IMG/VR virus record: IMGVR_UViG_2541047944_000003
Coordinates: 1 to 44,708 of that record
DNA length: 44,708 nt
Source: a virus
Lineage: Duplodnaviria; Heunggongvirae; Uroviricota; Caudoviricetes
Direction: 5' to 3' (one strand)
Shown here: positions 2,956 through 9,131 of the stretch, piece by piece
Numbering within the stretch: position 1 is the stretch's first letter
Layout: every line of letters starts with the position of its first letter
Program-made: the position numbers and the translations under genes
The notes under the pieces: generated by a model
Databases searched by the model: none
What the model was told of the DNA's origin: nothing
The model's input: only the letters and a program-made list of their open reading frames with translations

Positions 2956-3131
2956 ATCGCATTCAGATATTTGTTTTTATTCACTGAAGGAAAAGAATTT
3001 CTCTTAAGTAATTCCTCTCTCGATGGCATTGGCTTTACGCGTTGACGAATAATCATTTCCGCCGGAAGAATGCCGGGATTGTATGCAAGTCCTCTCATGG
3101 TAAATTCCTCAGTCATTACTGATAGCGCCAT
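2931..3131 (-). CDS. hypothetical small protein (66 aa)
   Basis: ORF in leftward operon, overlapping neighbours. Confidence 0.3.
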
Positions 3132-3405
3132 AGCGTGAGCGGTAATTACGCAGGCGCGGGTCGATATATTCAGGGAATTTGTCTATTGTCGCTTTTCGCA
3201 ACGGTCTCATTGCTGTTTCGTTTGTTCGGTCCTTCTCCTGTTTTAGCGCGAGTTGTATATCGCGTCGGTACATCCGTTCTGCTTTTGTTTCTGGTGGCAG
3301 AGTAAGAAATGCATCGAAATTGTTTTTGATATTTTCCAGCACCTCCAATACGGAATTGCCGGAACAGCGGCGCGCGTCGTCCGCACCATACAGAGGCGCT
3401 GGCAT
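3109..3405 (-). CDS. hypothetical protein (98 aa)
   Basis: ORF with AGGAGA ribosome-binding site upstream of ATG at 3405. Confidence 0.45.
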
Positions 3406-3418
3406 GATTTTCTCCTGA

Positions 3419-3934
3419 TTAAATTGCGTGAATAGCGTGACGAGGGAAGGGGAGGGTTACTGGCGCAAAAGGTATATCGTCGTCAAACTCCATAGGTGGT
3501 TCGCTGTGATTTACCTGCTTCTGAGGCTGCTGTTTTTGTTGCTGACCGTTATTTCGCTGAGGTGAAGACTGTTCATTGATTCCTTGCTTGCCACCAAGCA
3601 TTTGCATGGTTCCACCAACGCCCACGATAACTTCGGTAGTGAACCGATCCTGTCCGCTTTGATCCTGCCATTTTCTTGTCCGCAATTTTCCTTCAAGATA
3701 AACCTCAGAGCCTTTTCGCAGATATTCGCTGGCAATTTCTGCCAGTTTCCCGCTCATTACCACACGGTGCCACTCCGTCTGCTCCTTTTGCTCTCCAGTT
3801 TGCTTATCACGCCATTGTTCTGACGTAGCAACTGTAAGGTTTGCAAATGCCGTTCCTGATGGTGAATATCTGATTTCTGGATCATGCCCAAGGCGACCAA
3901 TAATGATCACCTTATTTACGCCTCTACTTCCCAT
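3419..3934 (-). CDS. ssb: single-stranded DNA-binding protein with 15-aa extension past the DDDIPF tip
   Basis: N-terminal OB-fold sequence ([39 protein letters not shown]...TEWHRVV), Gly/Gln-rich linker and acidic EFDDDIPF motif; ORF then continues [15 protein letters not shown] before the stop. Confidence 0.85.
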
Positions 3935-4642
3935 TTATGCCGCCTGTTTTAGTTCGTTAACTCTGATGTTCATTACCTGAACGCATTTAGCCTGCGCCTC
4001 CTCGTTGCCAGCCATTAATTGCCAGTCATGCTGATAACGCGCGATGAGTTTTTTCTTGTCAGTTTCTGTTGACGCATAATCGCTGAAGTCTTTCAGGATT
4101 TGTTCGCAGTCAACCGATGGAGATTTCTGGTTGGTATTTTCTGGTGATGGTTTGTTATCTGATGCTGGGATTGCCCATCCCGGCAGCGATGGAGGGAGCC
4201 AGTAAAATCCTGTTCCATCCTTCAGTTTTGCCCTGTGCCATCCCTGCTTTTTATCGATAGATGTTTGTGCGAAACCTTCCTCAAGGTTATACAGATACCG
4301 ACCGATTCCCCACTGAACGGCAGCGCGCTTCATTGCACCGGAACGACCACCTTTGACGGCTTCTACCTGCGTGTTTTCAGCAGCATCCCATTTGGTTACC
4401 CATTCGGAATCAATCTTTATTGATATGCCGCATTCAACGCCGCCGTTGTTGGGAATATCGCGGTATTCATTGCGCCATCCTGCTTTGCCGCAAACATCGT
4501 CCAGGCGTTTCATGATTGCCCGGTTCGTGACATAAGCCAGCACCATAGCCCACACTTTGCCATCGCGTGTTTTACCGCTTTGCTGTATTCGCCATTCGAT
4601 ATCTTCAGGGCTGAATGGCTCATTGAATTTATTCAAATCCAT
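3935..4642 (-). CDS. single-strand annealing recombinase (Rad52/Erf superfamily)
   Basis: Motif KGGRSGAMKRAAVQWGIGRYLY typical of Rad52-like annealing proteins; directly adjacent to ssb as a recombination module. Confidence 0.55.
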   Translation of the reverse strand: MDLNKFNEPFSPEDIEWRIQQSGKTRDGKVWAMVLAYVTNRAIMKRLDDVCGKAGWRNEYRDIPNNGGVECGISIKIDSEWVTKWDAAENTQVEAVKGGRSGAMKRAAVQWGIGRYLYNLEEGFAQTSIDKKQGWHRAKLKDGTGFYWLPPSLPGWAIPASDNKPSPENTNQKSPSVDCEQILKDFSDYASTETDKKKLIARYQHDWQLMAGNEEAQAKCVQVMNIRVNELKQAA

Positions 4643-5707: not shown

Positions 5708-6289
5708 ATGAACAACTCATGGTGGCAGGAACTAATGCATTTTTTCCTGCAAGGAATGACACTTAAACAGTTGATTCATATGCTAATCATCCTGATCATA
5801 TTGATTATTGTTATGCCGGTAAGCGTAAAAGAATGGATAAACCTGCATAATCCAGAAATCCTTCCTCATTACTGGATGTATTACATCCTGTTGTTTTGCG
5901 TTAGCTATGTGCTTAACGGCGTTGTTAATTCCGCTTATCACGCTGTGACTGAAAGAATTGAGGTATTCGCTGCTCAGAAGCGCAAATCTAAAGAAGAAAA
6001 ATATGTGCAAGATTTGTTTGATTCGTTAACTCTTGGAGAAAGAGCGTATTTGGCATTCGCTGTAGCCGCTAATAACCAGCTACAAACGGAAAAGGGCGCT
6101 CATGAATCAATTTCATTGCTCAAAAAAGGACTCCTCGTTCGAAGGCCTCCTGCTGTTGGATATCCTGATACCGACCGTTTCGTTATCCCTGAAAGCTATA
6201 GACATGAGTGCTACATTAGGTTTGCCGGGAAGGCAGACAGCCTTATGGATGAACTTATCGCTCAGGATAAGCATGGCAAAAACAAGTAA
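5708..6289 (+). CDS. sieB: superinfection exclusion protein B-like membrane protein
   Basis: 193-aa protein with two strongly hydrophobic helices; rightward gene embedded in the leftward early operon between N and cIII, as sieB is in lambda. Confidence 0.55.
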   Translation: MNNSWWQELMHFFLQGMTLKQLIHMLIILIILIIVMPVSVKEWINLHNPEILPHYWMYYILLFCVSYVLNGVVNSAYHAVTERIEVFAAQKRKSKEEKYVQDLFDSLTLGERAYLAFAVAANNQLQTEKGAHESISLLKKGLLVRRPPAVGYPDTDRFVIPESYRHECYIRFAGKADSLMDELIAQDKHGKNK

Positions 6290-6305: not shown

Positions 6306-6578
6306 TCATCTCGCCGTCAGTTGTTTTGATTTCCGGTAGCCTGCCGCGTAAAGAGCTACGTTCGGAAGACAAGTTGAACCTTCATATTTTCTGGTCAACG
6401 TTGTCAGAGTTATCACTTCTGCTCTCATTGCTGGTTTGCGCTTGCATTGCAAGACCACTCGTGAAGGGGTTGGCCTGTGTAGCTTGTCGGAGCTGATCGC
6501 CTCCTGACTTTGCAGATTTGCGCGACGAGCTCTACGGCGAGAAGCTGCGGTGCCTTTAAATTCTGTTTTTCTGGACAT
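6306..6578 (-). CDS. N: N-like transcription antitermination protein
   Basis: Arginine-rich motif TAASRRRARRANLQ near the N-terminus; GGAGGA RBS before ATG at 6578; sits between nutL and the early-left genes. Confidence 0.6.
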   Translation of the reverse strand: MSRKTEFKGTAASRRRARRANLQSQEAISSDKLHRPTPSRVVLQCKRKPAMRAEVITLTTLTRKYEGSTCLPNVALYAAGYRKSKQLTAR

Positions 6579-6676
6579 GGATTCCTCCCGAATAAACTTT
6601 GGCGATGCAATCTCGAAGCTCCTCCTGAGACGGTTGCTTCGGCATTGCATCCCACAGCTTATGTGGTTGGGTGATC

Positions 6677-7014: not shown

Positions 7015-7767
7015 TTATGCTGCAAGTCTCTTAACCCAAGTCTCTCTTTTGGAGAATGGTAGAACTTGGCTTGATTCATGGAAGAGTAAGGAGAGTTGTT
7101 GCATTTGATCACCAATTGCTTCGCTGTCTATAACAACAAATCTGTTGTTATACTCCTCACTTGAAGCTTTAAGATCAATTAGTTTCCCAAGCAATGAGTA
7201 AGCACTATTCCAGCTTCCTCCGTGTTTCACGCTTGATGTAAAAACGTATTTAGGTATGTCGGTTTTTATTGTTACAGGGACGGTAATTTGATGTCCACTC
7301 AAGCCATATACGTTTTCACGAAGAGAAAGTGCGTCTCTAAGCTCTGTGTGATATAGATAATCAATAACCATACTTTCAAACTTTTCAGCTTGAACTGGCT
7401 GATACCAGTCTAACGACAAAGTTGATGCGAGTATACCAGCTCTAATTATGTTCGATGTAATCGCACCGACATCCTTTTCTGTTGCCCAAGCAATGATTTC
7501 TCCTCGAGCATTGAGTTCTGCGCCTTCTTTAAGCAGTAATTGTCGTATCTCATCAAGTCGTTTTTTGGTAAGCGAGATCCCTCTTGCCTCCATATTCATT
7601 AAGGCATCGCATCTGTCACTAACTAAATACCTACCATTGACTTCACGGATAAAGGCACCGACATGCTCTCCATCATCACAGTAAGTGAATGGACTGATAA
7701 TTCTCAAGGTCTTGCCTATTGGATGGCATTCGAAACCTAGTTGTGAGATCACTGTTGAGCACATCAT
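7015..7767 (-). CDS. hypothetical protein (250 aa), immunity-region cargo
   Basis: ORF downstream of cI, 4-nt overlap with upstream ORF, AT-rich codon usage unlike backbone; no recognisable motif. Confidence 0.6.
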   Translation of the reverse strand: MMCSTVISQLGFECHPIGKTLRIISPFTYCDDGEHVGAFIREVNGRYLVSDRCDALMNMEARGISLTKKRLDEIRQLLLKEGAELNARGEIIAWATEKDVGAITSNIIRAGILASTLSLDWYQPVQAEKFESMVIDYLYHTELRDALSLRENVYGLSGHQITVPVTIKTDIPKYVFTSSVKHGGSWNSAYSLLGKLIDLKASSEEYNNRFVVIDSEAIGDQMQQLSLLFHESSQVLPFSKRETWVKRLAA

Positions 7768-8321
7768 ATTCCAAACCCCATTTGCCCCGACTCATCTTCA
7801 AGCGGTAAAGGTATTCTCCCAGAGTAAGTTATGTTCAGATGTTTACAGAAGTAATTCCAATACCCTACCAGGTCATCTGGGTTTATGTCATCTTCGATTG
7901 GAAACGCTATTCTATCACTATAGTATCCAGCTTCTTCATAGTATACATGGTAGTGAGCACCGTAAATGATATCTTGGTACTTCGGATGATCGACCTTGTA
8001 ACTATTCGTGTGTTTGTCAAAGTGATAGGTATCTACCGCGAAAACCCTCTTGTTATGATAGAAAGCAATAATATTTATTTTAGGGTAAGAAATCGGGTCA
8101 TCAGGTTCTGAATCCTGATCTGGTTTCCATTTCAGTTCAAACTTTAGCCCTTGTATAGGTATACAATCCTCATCCAAGGGGATGATATGGGCTTGTAGCC
8201 ACATATCAGAGCGACTTGGTTTCTGTTTCCATTTAACGCCAGAAAAGTTAACTATTTTTTTACAATAAAGTACTTTATCAACTTCTACTTGGCTTGGCTG
8301 ATAATCATCTATTTTTGCCAA
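7764..8321 (-). CDS. hypothetical Tyr/His/Asp-rich protein (185 aa), immunity-region cargo
   Basis: ORF 40 bp downstream of cI stop, co-oriented with cI; no recognisable motif. Confidence 0.6.
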   Translation of the reverse strand: MAKIDDYQPSQVEVDKVLYCKKIVNFSGVKWKQKPSRSDMWLQAHIIPLDEDCIPIQGLKFELKWKPDQDSEPDDPISYPKINIIAFYHNKRVFAVDTYHFDKHTNSYKVDHPKYQDIIYGAHYHVYYEEAGYYSDRIAFPIEDDINPDDLVGYWNYFCKHLNITYSGRIPLPLEDESGQMGFGI

Positions 8322-8360: not shown

Positions 8361-9020
8361 TCACCCAAACGTCTCTTCAGGCCATTGGCTGGCGATAACT
8401 TTCCCCACAACGGAACAACTCTCATTGCATGGGATCATTGGGTATTGTGGGTTTAGTGGCTGTAGAAACACCTGACCGCTATCCCTGATCAGTTTCTTGA
8501 AGGTAAATTCATCACCACCAAGTCTGGCTATGCAGAAATCGCCGGGCTCAACAGCTTGCTCAGGGTCAACCAGAATTAACATCCCGTCAGGAAAGCTGGG
8601 TTTGGAACCTGTTGGTGCGGTCATTGAGTTACCTTCAACCTCAAGCCAGAATGCAGAGTCACTGGCTTTTTTGGTTGTGCTTACCAATCTCTCCGCATCG
8701 CCTTTGGTAAAGGTTCTGAGTTCTGGAGAGAACATCCCAGCCTGAACATGAGAAAAAACAGGGTACTCATATTGTTTTTTAACTGGGGCCGATGAGTATT
8801 CGCCAACAGGTGAAAATGTCCCGTCGTGGTTGAATGATATGTTATCAATACCAAGGTATTTAAACACCACACCAATATCACTAAGAGATGGATGACGAGA
8901 TCCGCGCAACCAGTGTCCAATCCCACCCTGCGTCATACCTAGCTCTTCGGCTAACTTCTCTTGAGTTATGCCGAGCTCTTTCATTCTGGATCTAGCCAGT
9001 TCATACCATTTCATTTTCAT
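8361..9020 (-). CDS. cI: CI-type prophage repressor (HTH DNA-binding domain plus S24 peptidase domain)
   Basis: C-terminal domain matches lambda CI as remembered ([19 protein letters not shown]...[12 protein letters not shown]); N-terminal HTH differs; TAAGGA RBS before ATG at 9020. Confidence 0.9.
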
Positions 9021-9131
9021 GTCCTTATTATTACGCTCTGTACTGGAACCATCCATGCACAATGTGTATTTTTATTTGTATTCGTAAAGTACATATTGTA
9101 TTTTTTTATTCGTGTTTACTATGGAGGGCAT
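9021..9131. promoter_or_regulatory. OR region with divergent promoters for cI and cro
   Basis: AT-rich 111-bp divergent intergenic region containing operator-like site at 9084-9102. Confidence 0.6.

What the first reader, a model, noticed from the sequence alone, without database searches (positions are those of the whole stretch)
3419..3934. Prophage SSB whose conserved C-terminal DDDIPF tip is buried by a 15-residue extension
The protein has a canonical SSB OB-fold, Gly/Gln-rich linker and acidic ...EFDDDIPF motif, but the reading frame continues ([15 protein letters not shown]) to a stop only 14 nt before the next gene, running over that gene's RBS. In characterised SSBs the terminal Phe carboxylate is needed to dock partner proteins. 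An internalised tip could abolish or retarget those interactions (for example a dominant-negative SSB, or one specific for the adjacent Rad52/Erf-type recombinase), or it could reflect a stop-loss mutation.
Basis: partly seen in the sequence, partly recalled or inferred. Interest (0 to 1): 0.5.

Follow-up and report, generated by a model that had tools for sequence, protein, structure and literature searches.

The report
Conserved peptide capping mobile-element SSB tips
This prophage's single-stranded-DNA-binding protein carries a conserved 15-residue peptide after the normally terminal partner-docking tip; the same add-on recurs on SSB-type proteins of many phages and plasmids, so it is a selected, apparently undescribed module rather than a sequencing or stop-loss accident.

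Summary
Window 3419-3934 (-) encodes a 171-aa SSB ending ...[11 protein letters not shown] + [15 protein letters not shown]. It is not a stop-loss or assembly artefact. 116 of the 120 closest protein clusters carry the tail. All 40 distinct DNA haplotypes from viral loci encode exactly 15 residues, and the codons are under purifying selection (omega ~0.28, p ~1e-20). The same tip+tail module ends proteins of at least three phage families (PHROG 44, 4477, 3284), in prophages, virulent rV5/phi92-like phages, phage-like plasmids and IncN conjugative plasmids. It never occurs without the tip and was absent from 77 of 80 SSBs sampled one per bacterial species, most of them presumably the host's own ssb. 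Tailed and untailed alleles coexist among near-identical proteins, exchanged by recombination or split by an inserted endonuclease gene (Sf6 type). No neighbouring gene tracks the tail: it occurs with Rad52-, ERF-, Sak4- and RecT-type modules and with none. This argues against specificity for the adjacent recombinase. AlphaFold2 models leave it disordered and undocked. Best reading: a portable short linear motif that removes the free terminal carboxylate canonical SSB partners need, so it blocks or retargets host-factor docking. The partner is unknown. Novelty: new variant of a known kind. Interest 0.6.

The parts
3419..3934 (-). ssb gene, 171 codons plus TAA; the start ATG directly follows the TAA of the upstream Rad52-family gene
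   Evidence: Pfam SSB E 2e-38; PHROG 44 E 7e-67
3620..3919 (-). OB-fold DNA-binding/tetramerisation domain (residues 6-105)
   Evidence: best match to solved SSB structures 7f2n and 1eqq; AF2 strands 8-113
3500..3619 (-). Gln/Gly-rich disordered linker (residues 106-145)
   Evidence: sequence; pLDDT below 50 from residue 114
3467..3499 (-). host-like acidic SSB-Ct tip [11 protein letters not shown] (residues 146-156), here internal
   Evidence: tip codons in tailed SSBs have omega ~0.07
3422..3466 (-). 15-residue post-tip tail [15 protein letters not shown] (residues 157-171); the feature in question
   Evidence: conserved family, constant length, omega ~0.28
3464..3466 (-). Ala157 codon: the junction where Sf6-type relatives carry an inserted endonuclease ORF; their DNA identity to the window resumes at the next codon (CCAGTAAC...)
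3406..3418 (-). 13-nt spacer TCAGGAGAAAATC holding the Shine-Dalgarno sequence of abc2; not overlapped by ssb
3109..3405 (-). abc2 (P22-type anti-RecBCD protein 2), the downstream neighbour
   Evidence: PF11043 E 1e-37
3935..4642 (-). Rad52/22-family single-strand annealing protein, the upstream neighbour
   Evidence: PF04098 E 9e-26; PHROG 1097

Best explanation
The gene encodes an intact mobile-element SSB whose C-terminus is a two-part, horizontally exchanged module. The first part is the host-mimicking acidic SSB-Ct tip (...DFDDDIPF). It is followed directly by a conserved 15-residue peptide with the consensus A-P-[VI]-[TG]-L-[PQ]-[FY]-[PGA]-[RK]-H-[AT]-I-[HY]-[AVS]-[IL]-COOH. The peptide is a disordered short linear motif, not an accident of a lost stop codon. 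By turning the tip's terminal Phe into an internal residue, it removes the free alpha-carboxylate that canonical SSB-interacting proteins anchor. The tailed SSB should therefore no longer act as a general docking hub for host enzymes such as ExoI, RecQ, PriA or the chi subunit. Instead, tip plus tail most likely forms an extended ligand for, or a block against, a factor common to gamma-proteobacterial hosts rather than a phage-encoded neighbour. Shown here: that the tail exists, is conserved, is under purifying selection, is portable between protein families, is polymorphic among close relatives, and is predicted disordered. Inferred: loss of canonical docking, action in trans, and a host-encoded partner. 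Unknown: the partner's identity.
For: Conservation: 116 of 120 nearest cluster representatives (73-95% identity; E. coli, Klebsiella, Citrobacter, Enterobacter, Salmonella) carry the tail. In 228 dereplicated viral loci, 134 are tailed and every tail has 15 residues, with more than 25 protein variants and 40 DNA haplotypes. Selection: 123.7 synonymous against 95.3 nonsynonymous events on a minimum spanning tree, omega ~0.28, binomial p 9e-21; the tip is still at omega 0.07. Portability: the same module is on an IncN plasmid SSB, on three other plasmids (two phage-like, one from Vibrio), on Vibrio phage OB-fold proteins, on the mEp013 SSB, on rV5/phi92-type proteins (PHROG 4477; 32 of 105 representatives tailed) and on a PHROG 3284 protein. 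In families 4477 and 3284 the profile match ends within a residue or two of the tip. The tail is never seen without the tip, apart from the endonuclease capture. Mobile-element specificity: 77 of 80 SSBs sampled one per species stop at the tip. No neighbour tracks it. Disorder: pLDDT 23-34 and 36-45, undocked in both bodies. Requirement for the carboxylate: PMC10164576.
Against: Functional phages exist with untailed versions of the same SSB in the same module (Sf6, ES18), so the tail is dispensable for viability. Strong constraint on the internal tip (omega 0.07) could instead mean the tip is later exposed by processing. The AF2 models are monomers, one of them with a shallow alignment, so absence of docking is weak evidence. 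The omega estimate uses uncorrected counts on short sequences.
Confidence: 0.5

Rival explanations
1. Pure mask ('stealth' or dominant-negative SSB): the tail has no partner of its own and only prevents host SSB-interacting proteins, notably the 3'-5' exonuclease ExoI/SbcB, from being recruited to element ssDNA, or prevents the element's SSB from titrating host factors.
For: Canonical pockets need the free alpha-carboxylate. All contexts (recombination modules, an IncN plasmid, virulent phages) involve exposed element ssDNA. Host ExoI and a tip-bearing phage SSB-like protein are reported as opposing regulators of the DRT10 defence system.
Against: Any extension would mask the carboxylate, yet length is fixed at 15 residues and about 11 positions are conserved across three protein families. 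That implies sequence-specific recognition beyond masking.
Confidence: 0.2
2. Pro-peptide or degron: the tail is removed by a protease after Phe156 to unmask the tip at the right time, or its nonpolar C-terminus (...H-A-I-COOH) targets the SSB for turnover.
For: The internal tip remains as constrained as in normal SSBs (omega 0.07). The F|A-P junction is nearly invariant (A in 51 and P in 49 of 57 tails). The last residue is hydrophobic in almost all tails (I, L, V or F in 56 of 57).
Against: No protease is known or found nearby. A degron would not need 15 conserved positions. The resemblance to ClpX C-terminal signals is recalled from memory only and was not tested.
Confidence: 0.1
3. The first half of the tail is a beta-sliding-clamp-binding motif, so that element SSBs recruit the host clamp and polymerase to ssDNA.
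For: P-[VI]-[TG]-L-[PQ]-[FY] matches positions 2, 4 and 6 of the hexapeptide motif Q-phi-x-L-x-L; compare Hda QLSLPL. One natural variant reads AQVTLPF.
Against: The Gln at position 1, reported among the most important positions, is Pro in 49 of 57 tails and Gln in 1. The conserved second half (R-H-A-I-H-A-I) is unexplained. No binding test was possible.
Confidence: 0.1
4. Docking peptide specific for the adjacent Rad52/Erf-type recombinase.
For: In the window, ssb is translationally coupled to a Rad52-family gene. Cognate SSB tails stimulate phage annealing proteins, as for HK620 Sak4 and SSB (PMC5928155).
Against: The same tail occurs with Rad52-like, ERF-like, Sak4-like and RecT/YqaJ modules and with no recombinase at all (an IncN plasmid, rV5/phi92 phages). 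The same Rad52-like gene also pairs with untailed SSBs.
Confidence: 0.05
5. Not a protein feature: a stop-loss, assembly error or neutral read-through, or codons kept for a DNA/RNA-level role (coupling to abc2, or a homing-endonuclease target).
For: A single 15-codon extension is expected by chance about half the time. An endonuclease ORF does insert exactly at the tip/tail junction in relatives.
Against: Excess of silent changes. The tail persists with unrelated downstream genes and when a 573-nt cassette separates it from abc2. P22 and HK629 have abc2 without this sequence upstream. There is a 100% identical copy in an independent complete genome.
Confidence: 0.03

Closest known systems
E. 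coli SSB and the SSB-Ct tip paradigm (OB fold, disordered linker, terminal DDDIPF docking many genome-maintenance proteins)
   Same: OB fold (Pfam SSB; about 60-70% identical to enterobacterial SSBs with solved structures), disordered linker, and an identical acidic motif PPM[ED]FDDDIPF.
   Different: The motif is not terminal. Fifteen conserved residues follow it, so the alpha-carboxylate contact that defines canonical docking cannot form in the same way.
Phage HK620 SSB with Sak4 (PMC5928155): a cognate phage SSB in the same genomic slot, erf/sak4 - ssb - abc2
   Same: Same module position upstream of abc2. A C-terminal hexapeptide similar to DDDIPF is needed to stimulate the phage annealing protein.
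   Different: The HK620 SSB ends at its tip (NDYPPF-COOH) and has no post-tip peptide.
Bas52_0087, the SSB-like trigger of the DRT10 defence system (bioRxiv 10.64898/2026.04.29.721553)
   Same: A phage ssDNA-binding-type protein with a disordered C-terminal region bearing FDDDIPF. It is probably the same family as Mydo gp260 and phi92 gp156 (PHROG 4477), of which 30% of representatives carry the tail.
   Different: The preprint discusses only the tip. Whether Bas52_0087 has a tail was not determined here; the Vequintavirus homologue I read (JLBYU08) has none.
Beta-clamp-binding hexapeptides (Q-phi-x-L-x-L, for example Hda QLSLPL)
   Same: An aliphatic residue at position 2, Leu at 4, Pro tolerated at 5 and an aromatic or aliphatic residue at 6 match the first half of the tail.
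   Different: The tail lacks the Gln at position 1, and its conserved second half has no counterpart in the clamp motif.
Free-standing homing-type endonuclease insertions in phage genes (Sf6 gene 26, PHROG 2340)
   Same: Explains the untailed Sf6/IME10-type alleles: the ORF sits exactly between the IPF codon and the tail codons, and arrives with a variant tip (DDSDIPF).
   Different: The window itself has no insertion and represents the uninterrupted state.

Membership tests
Bacterial-type SSB (Pfam PF00436 / PHROG 44) | N-terminal OB-fold DNA-binding domain | tested here: met
   PF00436 residues 6-105, E 2e-38; PHROG 44, E 7e-67; PDB SSB hits at E 1e-63
Bacterial-type SSB (Pfam PF00436 / PHROG 44) | Disordered Gly/Gln/Pro-rich linker followed by the acidic motif D-D-D-I-P-F | tested here: met
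   Sequence; pLDDT below 50 from residue 114
Bacterial-type SSB (Pfam PF00436 / PHROG 44) | The acidic motif is the extreme C-terminus, with a free alpha-carboxylate on Phe | tested here: not met
   15 residues follow Phe156; the feature is defined in PMC10164576
Bacterial-type SSB (Pfam PF00436 / PHROG 44) | Homotetramer that binds ssDNA and recruits host partner proteins | not testable with these tools
   Only monomer prediction was available; there is no binding assay
P22/lambdoid recombination module (annealing protein - abc1 or ssb - abc2) | Synteny: an annealing-protein gene, then ssb, then abc2 in one operon | tested here: met
   the same order is seen in Sf6, g341c, HK75 and ES18
Sporadic stop-loss / read-through artefact | The extension is restricted to one assembly or lineage and evolves neutrally | tested here: not met
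   116 of 120 clusters tailed; omega 0.28, p 9e-21; present in three PHROG families
Beta-clamp-binding motif (Q-phi-x-L-x-[LF]) | Gln at position 1 | tested here: not met
   Pro in 49 of 57 non-redundant tails, Gln in 1; consensus taken
Beta-clamp-binding motif (Q-phi-x-L-x-[LF]) | Aliphatic residue at position 2, Leu at 4, Leu/Phe at 6 | tested here: met
   V or I in 50 of 57, L in 55 of 57, F or Y in 53 of 57
Beta-clamp-binding motif (Q-phi-x-L-x-[LF]) | Binds the DnaN hydrophobic cleft | not testable with these tools
   No complex prediction or binding assay was available
Endonuclease-split ssb allele (Sf6 type) | Stop directly after IPF, followed by a PHROG 2340 endonuclease ORF that ends in the tail peptide | tested here: not met
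   The window reads through uninterrupted; split alleles were found in 28 of 228 viral loci

The most novel reading that the evidence does not exclude
Tip plus tail is a portable hijack or counter-defence peptide of mobile elements. It converts the promiscuous, low-affinity SSB-Ct tip into a specific ligand or inhibitor of one host protein, for example ExoI/SbcB, the beta clamp, or a sensor of an SSB-triggered defence system. On this reading, the presence/absence polymorphism among near-identical SSBs, seen independently in two protein families, reflects an arms race with host systems that read SSB C-termini.
Probability: 0.25. Interest if true: 0.8.

Novelty: new variant of a known kind. Interest (0 to 1): 0.6.

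Why it matters
The accepted picture of bacterial SSB is that its last residues, ending in a free Phe carboxylate, form the universal docking site for more than a dozen genome-maintenance enzymes. Here a large, recurrent class of phage and plasmid SSB-type proteins keeps that site intact but buries it under a conserved 15-residue peptide, and swaps this cap on and off by recombination. If the cap blocks or redirects host-factor docking, it would be a simple and widespread way for mobile elements to control what the host does to their single-stranded DNA. That bears on recombineering efficiency, on plasmid establishment after conjugation, and on the growing list of defence systems triggered by phage SSBs. 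It is directly testable with peptides and with isogenic tail deletions.

Tried and rejected
1. Tail as part of the abc2 module: rejected. P22 (abc1-abc2) and HK629/TL-2011a lack this sequence upstream of abc2, and g341c keeps the tail on ssb with an exonuclease gene in between.

2. Downstream ORFs of the diverged tail subtypes as remote Abc2 homologues: an iterated HMM search recruited nothing beyond the Abc2 cluster.

3. Gene-neighbourhood enrichment for a partner gene: only the endonuclease and exonuclease cassettes and Abc2 differed, and these reflect relatedness, not the tail.

4. AF2 monomer models of two tailed proteins: the tails are disordered and undocked.

6. The genome-contig scan returned mostly SSBs that stop at the tip (one genome per species), useful only as a negative control.

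7. The representative search returned many truncated or frameshifted proteins; only a handful of extra tails were usable.

8. Foldseek of the rV5-type model against the PDB: no significant hit.

9. Literature string searches for LPFPRH and DIPFAP: zero papers.

10. PADLOC scan of the SSB: no hit.

11. My first regular expressions for tailed and split alleles were wrong and were corrected.

Full report
**1. What is in the window**

ORF 3419..3934 on the minus strand encodes 171 residues. Residues 6-105 match Pfam SSB (E 2e-38). The protein falls in PHROG 44, and its OB fold aligns to solved enterobacterial SSB structures at E ~1e-63. A Gln-rich linker leads to [11 protein letters not shown] (residues 146-156). 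The frame then continues through [15 protein letters not shown] to TAA.

The gene starts immediately after the TAA of a Rad52/22-family gene (3935-4642). It is followed, after a 13-nt spacer TCAGGAGAAAATC, by a P22-type abc2 gene (3109-3405). The surrounding window is a lambdoid prophage, with N, SieB, a cI-like repressor, and ORFs of the size and order expected for terminase, portal and tail genes. The 801-nt region is 100% identical to E. coli MS15236, and related sequence occurs in 661 of 5,426 complete E. coli genomes.

**2. The extension is not sporadic**

- Among annotated phages, ECP1, HZ41, CP-1639, g341c, epsilon34, HK75, mEp235 and mEpX2 align through residue 171. Sf6, IME10, N7 and ES18 stop aligning at residue 156.
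- g341c and HK75 are only about 70% identical in the core yet have the identical tail. Hafnia phage Pocitis76 (61% identical) has APIGLMHPTHAIFSI, the same length.
- Of the 120 best cluster representatives in the 5.8-billion-protein search (73-95% identity; E. coli, Klebsiella, Citrobacter, Enterobacter, Salmonella), 116 carry a tail of the form [AS]P[VIL]TLPFPRH[ATV][IVM][HY][AV][IL].
- Four scans of viral contigs gave 228 dereplicated loci: 134 tailed, 28 'split', 64 untailed and 2 other. Every tail has 15 residues. There are more than 25 protein variants and 40 DNA haplotypes.

**3. Selection**

I counted substitutions on a minimum spanning tree of the 40 tail haplotypes with Nei-Gojobori path counting. 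This gave 123.7 synonymous and 95.3 nonsynonymous changes over 12 synonymous and 33 nonsynonymous sites. That is omega ~0.28, with a binomial p of 9e-21 against neutrality. For comparison, the OB fold is at 0.11 and the 11-codon tip in these same tailed genes is at 0.07. So the tail is constrained as protein, and the now-internal tip is still strongly constrained. Synonymous sites are saturated between distant haplotypes, which makes this estimate conservative.

**4. How untailed alleles arise**

In Sf6-type phages, ssb ends ...NFDDSDIPF*. A 159-residue ORF follows that ends ...[17 protein letters not shown], and the DNA from CCAGTAAC to the abc2 ATG is essentially identical to the window. That ORF is a phage endonuclease (PHROG 2340, E 3e-47), and the profile match covers only residues 1-143, which leaves the tail outside. 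So a mobile endonuclease gene, arriving with its own variant tip, has been inserted exactly between the IPF codon and the tail codons. This accounts for 28 of the 30 untailed alleles among the 80 closest viral loci.

ES18 carries a different HNH gene and has lost the tail. Elsewhere, untailed SSBs have OB domains up to 100% identical to tailed ones. In the cleanest pair (L247 against L246), a cassette of about 70 nt holding the tip with or without the tail has been replaced between conserved flanks, and the tip codons differ at silent sites. That indicates recombination rather than a point mutation. Tailed and untailed are therefore two alleles circulating in the same module.

**5. No neighbouring gene tracks the tail**

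The gene upstream of tailed ssb can be Rad52-like, ERF-like, a Sak4-like Walker-A ATPase, or RecT/YqaJ-exonuclease. Recognisable Abc2 accompanies only the TLPFPRH subtype, and the other subtypes have unrelated downstream ORFs. P22 and HK629 have abc2 without the tail sequence upstream. This argues against both a recombinase-specific and an Abc2-specific role.

**6. The module is portable across element types and protein families**

- **Plasmids.** An IncN conjugative plasmid SSB ends [25 protein letters not shown]; its gene lies beside repA, a TrfB-related gene and an antirestriction gene. Tails also occur on two phage-like plasmids and on a Vibrio plasmid.
- **Counts.** A 27-residue tip+tail query covers at least 80% of its length, which requires the tail, in 133 plasmid and 169 phage records.
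- **Other bodies.** The hits include proteins with different bodies: Proteus phage Mydo gp260 (406 aa), phi92 gp156 (315 aa), Vibrio phage OB-fold proteins and mEp013 gp25.
- **An independent family.** Mydo gp260 and phi92 gp156 have no Pfam SSB domain and belong to PHROG 4477. In that family, all 105 cluster representatives end in a host-like ...DFDDDIPF. Of these, 32 add a 15-16-residue tail of the same consensus, again patchily among 91%-identical relatives.
- **Tail never without tip.** A DNA pattern scan for A-P-I-G-L-Q-Y-G in viral contigs found nine sites. Seven are tails directly after an IPF tip, including a PHROG 3284 protein, and two are chance matches. No tail occurred without a tip.
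- **Family profiles end near the tip.** In PHROG 4477 and 3284 the profile match ends within a residue or two of the tip's final Phe.
- **Control.** 77 of 80 SSBs sampled one per species, most of them presumably the host's own ssb, stop at the tip. At least one of the three exceptions (Mixta) sits in a phage-type recombination module.
- **Consensus.** From 57 non-redundant 15-mers in two families: A51 P49 [V31/I19] [T28/G27] L55 [P33/Q20] [F32/Y21] [P41/G8/A7] [R44/K4] H50 [A30/T15] I51 [H29/Y24] [A33/V11/S7] [I35/L18].

**7. Structure**

AlphaFold2 of the window protein, with 45 homologues, orders only the OB fold; residues 114-171 have pLDDT 23-34. A tailed PHROG 4477 member folds confidently into two beta-rich domains and a helical domain, with a disordered C-terminal region (residues 351-405, pLDDT 36-45). 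Foldseek found nothing significant. The weak hits are mostly OB-fold proteins, in line with a preprint that describes the Bas52 homologue as a two-OB-fold SSB-like protein bearing FDDDIPF. The tail docks on neither body, which fits a short linear motif that acts in trans. This evidence is weak, because the models are monomers.

**8. Mechanism**

Published work defines SSB-Ct pockets by three features: a hydrophobic pocket for the terminal Phe, a basic lip that anchors its alpha-carboxyl group (one of the most important contacts), and a basic ridge for the Asp residues (PMC10164576). With 15 residues after the Phe, that contact cannot form.

My best-supported reading is that tip plus tail is a composite docking or blocking peptide aimed at a factor shared by gamma-proteobacterial hosts. 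The reasons are that the tail is portable between unrelated bodies and element lifestyles, is never separated from the tip, and follows no phage gene.

Whether it only masks the tip or also recruits something is open. Recent reports bear on this. Phage SSBs trigger several defence systems (DARNA, Retron-Eco8, AbpAB, Hna, DRT10), and ExoI/SbcB opposes a tip-bearing phage SSB-like trigger. Together these give a plausible selective setting for an on/off polymorphism, but I have no direct evidence for it.

The first half of the tail resembles the hexapeptide clamp-binding motif but lacks its key Gln. I treat that as a lead only.

**9. Novelty**

Full-text searches for the motif strings LPFPRH and DIPFAP returned no papers. 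The only prior trace I found is the Sf6 GenBank note that gene 26 'contains 14 contiguous amino acids identical to E. coli SSB'. The library excludes most subscription-journal papers, so absence there is not proof. I class this as a new variant of a known kind: an SSB-Ct-bearing mobile-element SSB with a conserved post-tip module.

Noticed in passing
window 3935-4110 (-), the C-terminal ~55 residues of the Rad52-family protein; compare L181 1366-1980, L246 1632-2504, L010 1623-2501: Annealing proteins of different core families (Rad52-like, ERF-like, Sak4-like ATPase) that sit just upstream of phage ssb share a similar C-terminal segment ending ...EL(K/N)xAA. BLAST single-linkage clustering even merged Rad52-like and ERF-like proteins through it. 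It could be a portable SSB- or nuclease-docking domain analogous to the Red-beta C-terminal domain. It occurs with both tailed and untailed SSBs.
   Followed up: no
L001 1984-2463 (Sf6 gene 26) and 28 viral loci, e.g. L130 2984-3463; the corresponding site in the window is 3464-3466: A PHROG 2340 endonuclease ORF is inserted exactly between the IPF codon and the tail codons of ssb. It brings a variant tip (DDSDIPF plus stop) and reads through the captured 14 tail codons to the old ssb stop. This looks like a free-standing homing-type endonuclease that targets the most conserved stretch of ssb.
   Followed up: partly
L002 2016-2564 (g341c gene 29) and about 26 of 80 close viral loci; absent from the window: A 573-nt cassette encoding an Rv2179c-like 3'-5' exonuclease (PF16473, E 2e-73) is present or absent between ssb and abc2 in otherwise near-identical modules.
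   Followed up: no
window 7015-7767 and 7764-8321 (-): A two-gene cassette lies between the N gene (6306-6650) and the cI-like repressor (8361-9062), in the position rexAB occupies in lambda (position recalled from general knowledge). It matches the PADLOC candidate defence system PDC-M24: the B component at E 5e-10 and the A component weakly at E 5e-4. Pfam finds DUF1828 and, below its cut-off, DUF6978. SieB lies nearby at 5708-6289 (+).
   Followed up: partly
L349 3543-4160 (Enterobacter plasmid p60214CZ_1, which carries phage head and lysis genes): A gene annotated as a Shedu immune nuclease family protein lies immediately downstream of, and convergent with, a tailed ssb.
   Followed up: no
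P0160, P0263, P0240, P0138, P0146; L053 (Motiliproteus), L022 (Scandinavium): Other SSB lineages carry shorter or different post-tip peptides that often begin A-P or A-Q (APVPFY, AQVPYLAGI, APEFR, APIGLQYPALLSVM, ARLGMQWRGGELII). This suggests that capping of the IPF tip is more widespread and varied than the 15-residue family described here.
   Followed up: no
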